Virus record (IMG/VR): IMGVR_UViG_2548876855_000021
Direction: 5' to 3' (one strand)
Length of the DNA stretch: 13,469 nucleotides
DNA from: a virus
Lineage: Duplodnaviria; Heunggongvirae; Uroviricota; Caudoviricetes
Every line of letters starts with the position of its first letter. Position 1 is the stretch's first letter. Positions 7,411-7,625 of this stretch are shown here, in pieces. The position numbers and the translations under genes were made by a program. A model generated the notes under the pieces. That model saw nothing but the letters and a program-made list of their open reading frames with translations, did no database searches and was not told the origin of the DNA.

Positions 7411-7625
7411 TGAATACTCCTGAATAAGGGTGAATAGTGGTGAGGAGCAAAAAACAAATAGCTACGAGGAATAAAAAAACCACCCATTATGAAAAAATAC
7501 CATAAATAATTTTATTCCCATGTGAACAGTTATGAACAGTCGATGAATACTGCCATGCCAACCCTTCACCTTATAACCTTCTGTATTACCTATTTTTTTT
7601 ACCTAAGTGAATAGTAGTGAATAGT
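7411..7625. repeat. Iteron-like direct repeats TGAA(T/C)A(G/C/A)T in three clusters with about 10-bp phasing
   Basis: Copies start at 7411 (tgaatact), 7421 (tgaataag), 7431 (tgaatagt), 7523 (tgaacagt), 7533 (tgaacagt), 7544 (tgaatact), 7608 (tgaatagt) and 7618 (tgaatagt), with 10-11 bp spacing inside each cluster. They lie in the intergenic region between the divergent alpA/alpha and sid/psu/ogr operons. Confidence 0.5.

What the first reader, a model, noticed from the sequence alone, without database searches (positions are those of the whole stretch)
7411..7625. Eight phased iteron-like repeats in the divergent intergenic region
TGAA(T/C)A(G/C/A)T occurs eight times in three clusters with 10-11 bp spacing (one helical turn), placing the sites on one face of the DNA. 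The core TGAACA is the reverse complement of most of the P4 type I iteron TGTTCACC as I recall it, so this may be the replication origin or crr-like site bound by the alpha protein; alternatively it is a binding array for the AlpA/Vis-like or Ogr/Delta regulators.
Basis: partly seen in the sequence, partly recalled or inferred. Interest (0 to 1): 0.55.

Follow-up and report, generated by a model that had tools for sequence, protein, structure and literature searches.

The report
P4-type satellite replication origin (ori1)
The repeats are the replication origin of a P4-like satellite prophage of E. coli O157:H7, the counterpart of the well-studied phage P4 ori bound by its alpha primase-helicase, so the finding is real but mostly ordinary.

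Summary
In detail: eight same-strand TGAAYA copies lie in 215 bp (shuffles give at most 4), spaced 10-11 bp within three clusters. The window is an integrated P4-like satellite of E. coli O157:H7.

Clusters B (7521-7551) and C (7606-7625), a missed inverted copy (7561-7570) and a 77% AT tract align with the annotated P4 ori type 1 repeats. They have the same order (3 direct, 1 inverted, 2 direct), the same spacing and the same distance to sid. The module is conserved in 44 distinct relatives. The element's alpha protein keeps the solved P4 origin-binding domain (1KA8, E=5e-48), and a crr-like unit with the same iterons lies at 1654-1768.

Cluster A (7409-7448) is different. It sits where P4 has its type 2 repeats, which match P2 Cox boxes. 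In other satellites that position holds element-specific arrays, some matching 186-like Apl boxes. Here the units are iteron-like (A3 scores 16.2 bits) and the core iterons are weak, so cluster A is probably an accessory alpha site, with less certainty.

The AlpA/Vis and Ogr/Delta readings are rejected. This is a new member of a known kind, of low to moderate interest.

The parts
7409..7448 (+). Cluster A: four units in 10-bp register (GTTGAATACT, CCTGAATAAG, GGTGAATAGT, GGTGAGGAGC). An iteron-like accessory array at the position of P4's type 2 (Cox-box) repeats.
   Evidence: The array is conserved as a phased array in diverged E. coli elements L146-L148, in L063 and in L051. Iteron PWM scores are A3 16.2, A1 5.8, A4 2.2 and A2 -11.5 bits.
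7449..7520 (.). 75% AT spacer with recurring A-tracts between clusters A and B. Its length is fixed, placing A3 92 bp before B1.
   Evidence: composition. Searches show no indels among four lineages, with A3 at -85 in every member where it scores (L051 falls below threshold).
7521..7551 (+). Cluster B: three direct type I iterons (TGTGAACAGT, TATGAACAGT, GATGAATACT), homologous to P4 9310-9338.
   Evidence: PWM scores are 13.4, 7.5 and 6.9 bits. The 10/11-bp spacing is found in 42 of 43 relatives.
7561..7570 (-). Inverted type I iteron (GGTGAAGGGT on the - strand; CCTTCACC on the +), homologous to P4 9353-9360.
   Evidence: PWM score 11.4 bits.
7571..7605 (.). 35-bp AT-rich tract (77% AT) containing the highly conserved CTGTATTAC and a T-run. 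This is the presumed unwinding or priming region of the origin.
   Evidence: (the most conserved non-iteron columns).
7606..7625 (+). Cluster C: two direct type I iterons (AGTGAATAGT twice), homologous to P4 9396-9413.
   Evidence: PWM score 14.4 bits each.
1654..1768 (+). Single crr-like unit, the second cis site of the bipartite P4 origin. It carries iterons at 1675(-), 1746(+) and 1758(-, a perfect GGTGAACAGT).
   Evidence: Alignment to both P4 crr 120-bp repeats. nhmmer against the P4 crr profile covers the full length at E=0.0024. PWM scores are 7.5, 13.5 and 18.8 bits. Relatives carry one or two crr units 3' of alpha.
3156..5546 (-). alpha primase-helicase gene, the predicted initiator. 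Its last ~100 codons (about 3170-3480) encode the iteron-binding winged-helix domain.
   Evidence: 72% identity to P4 alpha over 98% of its length. Pfam domains. The C-terminus matches PDB 1KA8 at E=5e-48.
7704..7759 (+). Context only, not part of the origin: two TGT-N12-ACA Ogr/Delta-type boxes of the Psid promoter (7704-7721 and 7742-7759), 86 bp after the last iteron.
   Evidence: P4 has the same pair, 38 bp apart, 87 bp after its last iteron.

Best explanation
The region is the ori1-type replication origin of a P4-like satellite prophage of E. coli O157:H7. The conserved core is 7521-7625. It holds three direct iterons, one inverted iteron, a 35-bp AT-rich tract and two more direct iterons.

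By homology with P4, the C-terminal winged-helix domain of the element's own alpha protein binds the iterons (consensus GGTGAACAGT; here NTGAAYAST variants). Alpha molecules bound one helical turn apart then assemble on the DNA. The AT-rich tract is opened, and alpha's helicase and primase activities start replication independently of host DnaA and DnaG. This works together with a second iteron site, the crr-like unit at 1654-1768 beyond the alpha gene.

Cluster A (7409-7448) lies outside this core, where P4 carries its P2-Cox boxes. In this lineage it consists of iteron-like units. It most likely acts as an accessory alpha-binding array that reinforces a core whose iterons have drifted from consensus.

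Shown here: sequence, layout, homology, conservation, and the presence of the cognate binding domain and of crr. Inferred: actual alpha binding, origin firing, and the role of cluster A.
For: 1. GenBank X51522 annotates the P4 rep_origin between ORF88 (Vis) and sid. It has type 1 repeats at 9310, 9320, 9331 (-), 9353 (+), 9396 and 9406 (-).
2. The window shows the same order, orientation and spacing: 10/11 bp within clusters, 64 vs 65 bp from B3 to C1, and 174 vs 177 bp from the last iteron to the sid start.
3. An nhmmer profile of the module finds it upstream of alpha in 45 loci (44 distinct sequences) from many Enterobacterales genera. The iteron columns and the CTGTATTAC/T-run are the most conserved. 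Spacings are kept to within 1-2 bp.
4. An iteron weight matrix trained on 235 sites from other lineages gives 17 hits of at least 6 bits in the window. Seven lie in 7429-7625 (A1 falls just below the cut-off at 5.8 bits) and three lie in the crr-like unit.
5. Alpha is intact, 72% identical to P4 alpha. Its C-terminus matches the solved P4 alpha origin-binding domain 1KA8 at E=5e-48.
6. The crr-like unit aligns with both P4 crr repeats.
7. For cluster A: A3 (GGTGAATAGT) is the best iteron in the region at 16.2 bits, and A1 is 9/10 identical to B3.
8. The array and its 92-bp distance to B are conserved in six elements across two sub-lineages whose flanks have diverged.
9. This lineage has only 3-6 iteron-grade core sites (41-68 bits), against 6-7 sites (71-116 bits; L034 is the exception with 5 sites and 56 bits) in the other elements. 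Five of its six members have iteron-grade sites at -85/-95; elsewhere 33 of 40 elements have none in the upstream 200 bp and none has one at those positions.
10. No GAATA-type array was found in 160 sampled P2- and 186-type helper switch/att regions.
Against: 1. No binding or replication experiment exists for this element. The primary P4 ori papers could not be read here, so the mechanism rests on the GenBank annotation plus my recollection of Ziegelin 1993/1995, Tocchetti 1999 and Yeo 2002.
2. The core iterons are weaker than in most relatives, and the crr-like unit is single and only marginally significant (E=0.0024). The origin could therefore be impaired.
3. Cluster A occupies the slot that in P4 and many relatives holds helper Cox/Apl-type boxes. 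Its unit A2 is a poor iteron (-11.5 bits).
4. Alpha's DNA-binding domain shows no lineage-specific change that would explain relaxed iterons.
5. P2's own Cox boxes escape the strict pattern scans, so the negative helper search is only moderately informative.
Confidence: 0.85

Rival explanations
1. Cluster A (7409-7448) is not an alpha site. It is a helper-sensing array: phased boxes bound by the Cox/Apl-type excisionase-regulator of an infecting or induced P2-family helper. This would switch on the satellite's late leftward promoter, as P2 Cox does at P4 PLL. Clusters B and C remain the origin.
For: 1. Cluster A sits at -104 to -67 from the ori core, where P4 has its type 2 repeats at -127 to -98.
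2. Those repeats (TTAAAGTCA, TTAAAGCCA, TTAAAGCAA) fit the published Cox-box consensus TTAAA(G/C)NC(A/C), with 10-11 bp phasing, upstream of PLL (PMC3936717).
3. Most relatives carry 3-5 element-specific phased units at this position.
4. The GGCAAAC type matches boxes at both attP and the apl-cI switch of a 186-like phage.
5. Three or more adjacent direct repeats one helical turn apart is the binding format of these proteins (PMC7498355).
Against: 1. No GAATA or TGAAnA array was found in 80 P2-type and 80 186-type helper int-repressor-cox/apl regions, whereas GGCAA arrays were easy to find (13 of 80).
2. BLAST of the array against 50,697 phage records gave only chance-level hits.
3. The units resemble this element's own iterons too closely (A3 at 16.2 bits; A1 is 9/10 identical to B3).
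4. In this lineage about 380 bp of extra DNA separates the array from alpA. The sequence homologous to the conserved motif just upstream of vis/alpA (probably the PLL core promoter; my inference) stays next to alpA, which would put cluster A roughly 450 bp upstream of the promoter.
Confidence: 0.27
2. The whole array is an operator for the satellite's own AlpA/Vis-like regulator, which would control the divergent late promoters or excision.
For: An AlpA-family gene (6598-6858, -) is the first gene to the left of the region. Proteins of this kind bind direct repeats one turn apart, and P4 Vis is reported to act at PLL and att (stated in PMC7498355).
Against: 1. The Vis/AlpA helix-turn-helix core is nearly identical in P4, the window and elements whose upstream arrays are TTAAAG, GGCAAAC, AGTGCA, TAAGGG or GAATA. 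L005, L017, L023 and L049 differ by no more than 2 residues yet carry different arrays. The protein therefore cannot set the specificity.
2. The iterons of B and C are conserved together with alpha and recur in crr, beyond the alpha gene, not at the att/int end.
Confidence: 0.04
3. The repeats are binding sites for the Ogr/Delta zinc-finger activator of the late promoters.
For: An Ogr/Delta gene is present (9098-9370) and the region is the divergent late-promoter region. One TGT-N12-ACA match spans B1-B2 (7521-7538).
Against: 1. Ogr/Delta sites are single dyads (TGT-N12-ACA) about 55 bp upstream of the start site, not phased direct repeats (established knowledge).
2. The true boxes lie at 7704-7721 and 7742-7759, in the same paired arrangement and at the same distance from the iterons as in P4 (9493 and 9531).
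3. The 7521-7538 match is a by-product of two adjacent TGAACA cores.
Confidence: 0.02
4. The array is a decaying relic: homologous to ori1 but no longer able to fire in this O157:H7 element.
For: 1. The core iterons sum to 68 bits, against 71-116 bits in nearly all other lineages. B2, B3 and the inverted copy deviate from consensus.
2. The crr-like unit is single, whereas P4 has two.
3. The element's Lamassu cargo is frameshifted.
4. O157 Sakai has only a defective P2-like prophage as a potential helper (PMC2669165).
Against: 1. Alpha, DUF5375, alpA, sid, psu, delta and int are all intact ORFs.
2. The same layout, including cluster A and exact spacings, is kept in diverged sister lineages (L146-L148, L051, L063) whose flanks have drifted. 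This indicates purifying selection.
3. P4's own annotated crr iterons include GGTGAATA variants.
Confidence: 0.12

Closest known systems
Phage-plasmid P4 ori (ori1) with type I iterons, GenBank X51522 positions 9086-9809
   Same: It has the same genomic slot (between vis/alpA and sid) and the same iteron sequence family (GGTGAACAG / TGTTCACC). The architecture is also the same: 3 direct + 1 inverted + AT-rich tract + 2 direct. Spacings match (10/11 bp; 64 vs 65 bp; 174 vs 177 bp to sid). The cognate alpha protein has a 1KA8-type binding domain, and a crr partner site lies beyond alpha.
   Different: Five of the six core iterons deviate from the P4 consensus (TGAATA cores; A or T instead of G before TGAA; inverted copy CCTTCACC). 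Only one crr unit is present instead of two 120-bp repeats, and a 318-aa cargo gene separates it from alpha. About 380 bp of extra DNA lies between alpA and the origin. The type 2 (Cox-box) repeats are replaced by iteron-like units.
P4 'type 2 repeats', i.e. P2 Cox boxes upstream of PLL (TTAAA(G/C)NC(A/C))
   Same: Cluster A occupies the equivalent position relative to the iteron core. Like them it has three to four direct units with a 10-bp period.
   Different: The unit sequence is unrelated to Cox boxes and is iteron-like. No sampled helper carries matching boxes. The array is probably far from the promoter in this lineage.
Iteron origins of theta plasmids and PICI/SaPI satellites (Rep or primase-helicase plus phased iterons next to an AT-rich tract)
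   Same: The general logic is shared: an element-encoded initiator, directly repeated sites one helical turn apart, and an adjacent AT-rich unwinding region.
   Different: The initiator is the P4 alpha Toprim-primase/D5-type helicase with a C-terminal winged helix, not a RepA-type or SaPI Rep protein. The origin is bipartite (ori plus a distant crr). From memory, it is independent of DnaA.

Membership tests
P4-type ori1 (alpha-dependent iteron origin) | Located in the divergent region between the vis/alpA (PLL) operon and the sid (Psid) operon | tested here: met
   AlpA is at 6598-6858 (-) and the Sid-like gene at 7792-8544 (+). P4 ori is annotated between ORF88 and sid. The same synteny holds in 43 relatives.
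P4-type ori1 (alpha-dependent iteron origin) | Six type I iterons (TGTTCACC / GGTGAACA) arranged 3 direct, 1 inverted, 2 direct, at about one helical turn | tested here: met
   Column-by-column alignment with P4 and with 44 relatives. All six sites score at least 6.9 bits with a PWM trained on other lineages. Several are degenerate variants.
P4-type ori1 (alpha-dependent iteron origin) | AT-rich tract of about 35 bp inside the minimal origin | tested here: met
   7571-7605 is 77% AT, against 57% for the window. It aligns with the P4 tract and is highly conserved.
P4-type ori1 (alpha-dependent iteron origin) | Cognate alpha protein with a C-terminal iteron-binding domain | tested here: met
   The 796-aa alpha is 72% identical to P4 alpha. 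Its C-terminal 100 aa match PDB 1KA8 at E=5e-48.
P4-type ori1 (alpha-dependent iteron origin) | A second cis-acting iteron site (crr) beyond the 3' end of alpha | tested here: met
   A unit at 1654-1768 aligns with both P4 crr repeats. The profile hit covers the full length at E=0.0024. Iterons score 18.8, 13.5 and 7.5 bits. It is single-copy and diverged.
P4-type ori1 (alpha-dependent iteron origin) | Alpha binds the iterons, and replication initiates there | not testable with these tools
   This needs EMSA or footprinting and a plasmid replication assay.
Helper Cox/Apl (RDF) box array upstream of PLL (cluster A only) | Three or more direct repeats with 10-11 bp spacing, between PLL and the ori iterons | tested here: inconclusive
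   The format and the position relative to the ori core match P4. However, about 380 bp of extra DNA separates the array from alpA and from the motif I take to be the PLL core.
Helper Cox/Apl (RDF) box array upstream of PLL (cluster A only) | The unit sequence matches the boxes at a helper phage's own switch region and attP | tested here: not met
   None of 160 sampled P2-type and 186-type helper loci has GAATA or TGAAnA arrays, and there is no significant phage BLAST hit. The sample is incomplete and the scan is strict.
Vis/AlpA operator | The array sequence should track the DNA-binding specificity of the element's Vis/AlpA | tested here: not met
   The Vis/AlpA HTH core is nearly invariant across elements with unrelated arrays.
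Ogr/Delta-responsive promoter site | A TGT-N12-ACA dyad about 55 bp upstream of the start site | tested here: not met
   The dyads lie at 7704-7721 and 7742-7759, outside the repeats, as in P4.

The most novel reading that the evidence does not exclude
The slot just left of the iteron core may be a hypervariable 'helper-sensor' in P4-like satellites. Each lineage would carry phased boxes copied from the Cox/Apl-type excisionase-regulator sites of its own P2-family helper: TTAAAG for P2 Cox, GGCAAAC for 186-like Apl, and others. The O157:H7 lineage would then have replaced that sensor with alpha-type iterons. That change would either extend a weakened origin or put the leftward late operon under the control of the replication initiator instead of a helper signal. 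Alternatively, cluster A could be the sensor for a still unsampled helper whose boxes happen to resemble iterons.
Probability: 0.3. Interest if true: 0.55.

Novelty: new member of a known kind. Interest (0 to 1): 0.3.

Why it matters
The result pins down the cis-acting replication sites (ori1 and crr) of a P4-like satellite present in hundreds of E. coli O157:H7 genomes. That is useful for annotation, for judging whether the element can still replicate, and for building P4-based delivery vectors that work in O157.

The more interesting by-product concerns the DNA next to the conserved origin, which varies between satellites. In at least two classes that variation mirrors the binding boxes of helper-phage Cox/Apl proteins. 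If this holds generally, helper specificity of P4-like satellites could be read from sequence, and the O157 lineage would be an exception that lost or rewired the sensor.

Tried and rejected
1. BLASTN of 6800-7900 against 50,697 phage records found nothing. The homology with P4 is visible only in a direct alignment or a profile search.
2. An Rfam scan found nothing in 7411-7625. The only hits are the C4/CI immunity RNA and an isrK-like leader at 6293-6539.
3. sigma-70 promoter and terminator scans of 6800-7850 were no better than shuffles. I could not place PLL in this lineage with confidence.
4. Scans of viral contigs for GAATA-N5-TGAATA-N4-TGAATA and for GGCAAAC-N3-GGCAAAC returned mostly unrelated hits, judged from the contig names (giant-virus and environmental metagenome contigs). 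I did not examine them further.
5. Anchoring helper loci on gpD failed because prophage contigs end at att. Re-anchoring on gpA worked.
6. An exact 5-mer chain finder missed P2's own degenerate Cox boxes, so negative results for P2-type helpers are weak.
7. A specificity shift in alpha's DNA-binding domain was tested and not found.
8. The 56-aa ORF at 7219-7389 (-) lies in DNA that differs between sub-lineages. I do not regard it as a gene.
9. The primary P4 origin papers and the 1993 review are not in the held library.

Full report
**What the window is.** Pfam scans and comparison with annotated genomes show an integrated P4-like satellite.

| Window coordinates | Feature |
|---|---|
| 492-1391 (+) | Host LysR gene |
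| 2067-3023 (+) | Unknown 318-aa gene |
| 3156-5546 (-) | alpha primase-helicase, 72% identical to P4 alpha |
| 5503-5826 (-) | DUF5375 |
| 6044-6601 (-) | 'Ash/Icd' ORF, overlapped by a C4/CI-type RNA (6293-6380) and an isrK-like leader (6449-6526) |
| 6598-6858 (-) | AlpA/Vis |
| 7390-7791 | Intergenic region in question |
| 7792-9370 (+) | sid-like, psu, delta |
| 9780-13057 (-) | Frameshifted Lamassu system |
| from 13061 (-) | int |

The 941-bp stretch 6860-7800 is 100% identical in E. coli O157:H7 strains, including EDL933. It probably corresponds to the P4-like prophage Sp2 of strain Sakai, which is described as carrying an ogr homologue (PMC2669165). That assignment is an inference.

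**The observation.** TGAAYA occurs on the + strand in three clusters.

| Cluster | Start positions | Spacing (bp) |
|---|---|---|
| A | 7411, 7421, 7431 | 10, 10 |
| B | 7523, 7533, 7544 | 10, 11 |
| C | 7608, 7618 | 10 |

Eight same-strand copies in 215 bp compares with at most four in 500 dinucleotide-preserving shuffles of the window. Shuffles of the intergenic region alone gave a mean of 0.37.

**Comparison with P4.** GenBank X51522 annotates the P4 origin between ORF88 (Vis) and sid. It has three 'type 2 repeats' (9176, 9186, 9196) followed by 'type 1 repeats' at 9310, 9320, 9331 (-), 9353 (+), 9396 and 9406 (-).

The window aligns with this region:

- Cluster B aligns with 9310-9338.
- The inverted CCTTCACC aligns with 9353-9360.
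- The tract TTATAACCTTCTGTATTACCTATTTTTTTT aligns with P4's CTTTAACTTACTGTATTACTTATCTTTTTT.
- Cluster C aligns with 9396-9413.

Distances agree as well. B3 to C1 is 64 bp, against 65 in P4. The last iteron to the sid start codon is 174 bp, against 177. The last iteron to the first Ogr/Delta box is 86 bp, against 87, and both elements have the same pair of TGT-N12-ACA boxes 38 bp apart.

**Conservation.** A profile of the roughly 110-bp module found it upstream of alpha in 45 loci. These represent 44 distinct sequences from Enterobacter, Kluyvera, Citrobacter, Klebsiella, Serratia, Yersinia, Erwinia, Rosenbergiella and others. The iteron columns and the CTGTATTAC/T-run are the most conserved. 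Spacing is 10/11 bp in 42 of 43 relatives, B3 to C1 is 63-66 bp, and C1 to C2 is 10 bp in 38 and 9 bp in 5. TGAATA and TGAAGA cores are common natural variants, and P4's own annotated crr iterons include GGTGAATA. In more distant E. coli elements, similarity to the query shrinks to exactly 7522-7627.

**The partner components.** Alpha's last 100 residues match the solved P4 alpha origin-binding domain, PDB 1KA8, at E=5e-48. A crr-like unit lies at 1654-1768. It aligns with both P4 crr 120-bp repeats: an A-run/T-run, CTGTTCA, a T-rich stretch, GTGAACA and TGTTCACC. It matches the crr profile over its full length, at a marginal E-value of 0.0024. Relatives carry one or two crr units beyond alpha.

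A weight matrix built from 235 iterons of other lineages gives 17 hits of at least 6 bits in the whole window. Seven lie in 7429-7625 and three in the crr-like unit, including a perfect GGTGAACAGT at 1758. All sequence-testable features that define a P4-type bipartite origin are therefore met.

**Cluster A is a different matter.** It lies outside the conserved module, at -104 to -67 from the core, where P4 has its type 2 repeats. Those repeats (TTAAAGTCA, TTAAAGCCA, TTAAAGCAA) fit the published P2 Cox-box consensus TTAAA(G/C)NC(A/C). That consensus is described as phased at 10-11 bp and located upstream of P4 PLL, where P2 Cox activates the satellite (PMC3936717; P2 annotation).

Most relatives also have three to five phased units at this position, but the unit differs between elements: GGCAAAC, GCACATCCTC/AGTGCA, TATTGGCCAT, TAAGGG, CTTATTAG and others. 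The GGCAAAC array matched a 186-like Eganvirus. That phage carries four such boxes right after int, in the attP arm, and six in the apl-cI switch region. This is the two-site, one-turn-spaced pattern described for 186 Apl (PMC7498355). 13 of 80 sampled 186-type prophages have such arrays. So this slot appears, in general, to hold boxes for a helper's Cox/Apl-type protein.

**Which protein reads cluster A?**

*The satellite's own Vis/AlpA is unlikely.* Its helix-turn-helix core is almost invariant across elements with unrelated arrays.

*Ogr/Delta is excluded* by the position and form of its known sites.

*A helper Cox/Apl protein remains possible,* but several results argue against it:
- None of 160 sampled helper switch/att regions has a GAATA or TGAAnA array.
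- BLAST of the array against phage genomes gave only chance-level hits.
- In this lineage the array is separated from alpA by about 380 bp of extra, partly variable DNA.

*Alpha is favoured* by four observations:
- A3 (GGTGAATAGT) is the best iteron in the region at 16.2 bits. A1 scores 5.8 bits and is 9/10 identical to B3.
- The array and its exact 92-bp distance to B are conserved in six elements from two sub-lineages whose flanks have diverged. One of them has an extra unit.
- This lineage has only 3-6 iteron-grade core sites (41-68 bits). The other elements have 6-7 (71-116 bits), with L034 the exception at 5 sites and 56 bits.
- Five of the lineage's six members carry iteron-grade sites at -85/-95. 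In the other lineages 33 of 40 elements have no iteron-grade site in the upstream 200 bp, and none has one at those positions.

Alpha's binding domain shows no lineage-specific substitutions. The weak iterons therefore look like drift rather than retargeting, and cluster A is a plausible compensation. I put this reading at roughly 55-60%, and the helper-sensor reading at about 27%.

**Mechanism.** By homology with P4, alpha binds the iterons through its C-terminal winged helix and assembles on sites one turn apart. The AT-rich tract opens, and alpha's helicase and primase activities start replication together with crr, without DnaA or DnaG. This mechanism comes from my knowledge of Ziegelin et al. 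1993/1995, Tocchetti et al. 1999 and Yeo et al. 2002. Those papers could not be opened here. The homology, layout, conservation and presence of all components are shown. Binding and firing are inferred.

**Verdict.** It is the ori1 of a P4-like satellite, a new member of a known kind. The lineage-specific twist is cluster A, iteron-like units in the Cox-box slot, which is only partly resolved. The most interesting by-product is the apparent helper-specific diversity of that slot across satellites.

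Noticed in passing
Relatives L004, L006, L018, L021, L022, L049, L050, L055 (about -130 to -80 from the ori core); L269 793-853 and 2500-2540: Many P4-like satellites carry three to five GGCAAAC boxes, phased at 10 bp, where P4 has its Cox boxes. The same boxes occur at both the attP arm and the apl-cI switch of a 186-like Eganvirus (PP475179), and in 13 of 80 sampled 186-type prophages. This suggests helper-specific Cox/Apl 'sensor' arrays. Other satellites carry other units (AGTGCA/GCACATCCTC, TATTGGCCAT, TAAGGG, CTTATTAG), and the helpers also show TGCAT-type and GGGCAAT-type arrays. 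I found no paper describing this in the searchable library, though the search was limited.
   Followed up: partly
window 1654-1768: A single crr-like unit with three iterons (a perfect GGTGAACAGT at 1758-1767 on the - strand) lies next to the host LysR gene. It is separated from alpha by a 318-aa gene, whereas P4 has two 120-bp crr repeats directly after alpha.
   Followed up: yes
window 2067-3023 (+): A 318-aa ORF with no Pfam or PADLOC match sits between alpha and the crr-like unit. In relatives, crr lies either within a few hundred bp of the alpha stop or about 0.7-3 kb away. This looks like a second variable cargo slot.
   Followed up: partly
window 9780-13057 (-): The psu/delta-int hotspot holds a Lamassu (LmuA/LmuB/LmuC; Pfam ABC-3C) defence system that appears pseudogenised. 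LmuB is split into three ORFs covering profile positions 3-199, 230-386 and 428-608 of 610. LmuA is split into two, covering 10-140 and 141-333 of 336.
   Followed up: partly
window 6293-6539 (-): Rfam C4 antisense RNA (84 bits), isrK (72 bits) and a c4-a1b1 target match lie inside the annotated 'Ash/Icd-like' ORF. This is the P4 CI-RNA immunity region, and the protein annotation there may be spurious or dual-use.
   Followed up: no
window 6860-7400: About 380 bp of extra DNA lies between alpA and the origin, compared with P4 and most relatives. It is shared with L063, L051 and L146-L148, and L026 has a comparably long gap. It is conserved only near alpA and just left of cluster A (GAAATGCAACA block), and its middle differs between sub-lineages. 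The 56-aa ORF at 7219-7389 lies in that variable part. An isolated iteron-grade site (GGTGAATGGT, 11.8 bits) lies at 7072 (-). Its function is unknown, and PLL was not located.
   Followed up: partly
window 7449-7520: The 72-bp spacer between clusters A and B is 75% AT, with A-tracts recurring about every 21 bp (near 7449, 7470 and 7491). Its length is invariant in the lineage. It may be intrinsically bent DNA that brings cluster A towards the core.
   Followed up: no
window 7792-9370: The gene order here is sid-psu-delta with a short, single-domain 90-aa Delta, whereas P4 has sid-delta-psu with a 166-aa Delta. The Sid-like protein hits the Psu Pfam family (E=7e-10).
   Followed up: no
L052 (Zobellella maritima) 10440-10662: In this distant element (alpha 45% identical) the ori-like module and an inverted partner lie immediately beyond the 3' end of alpha rather than upstream of it. 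This suggests a different arrangement of ori and crr.
   Followed up: no
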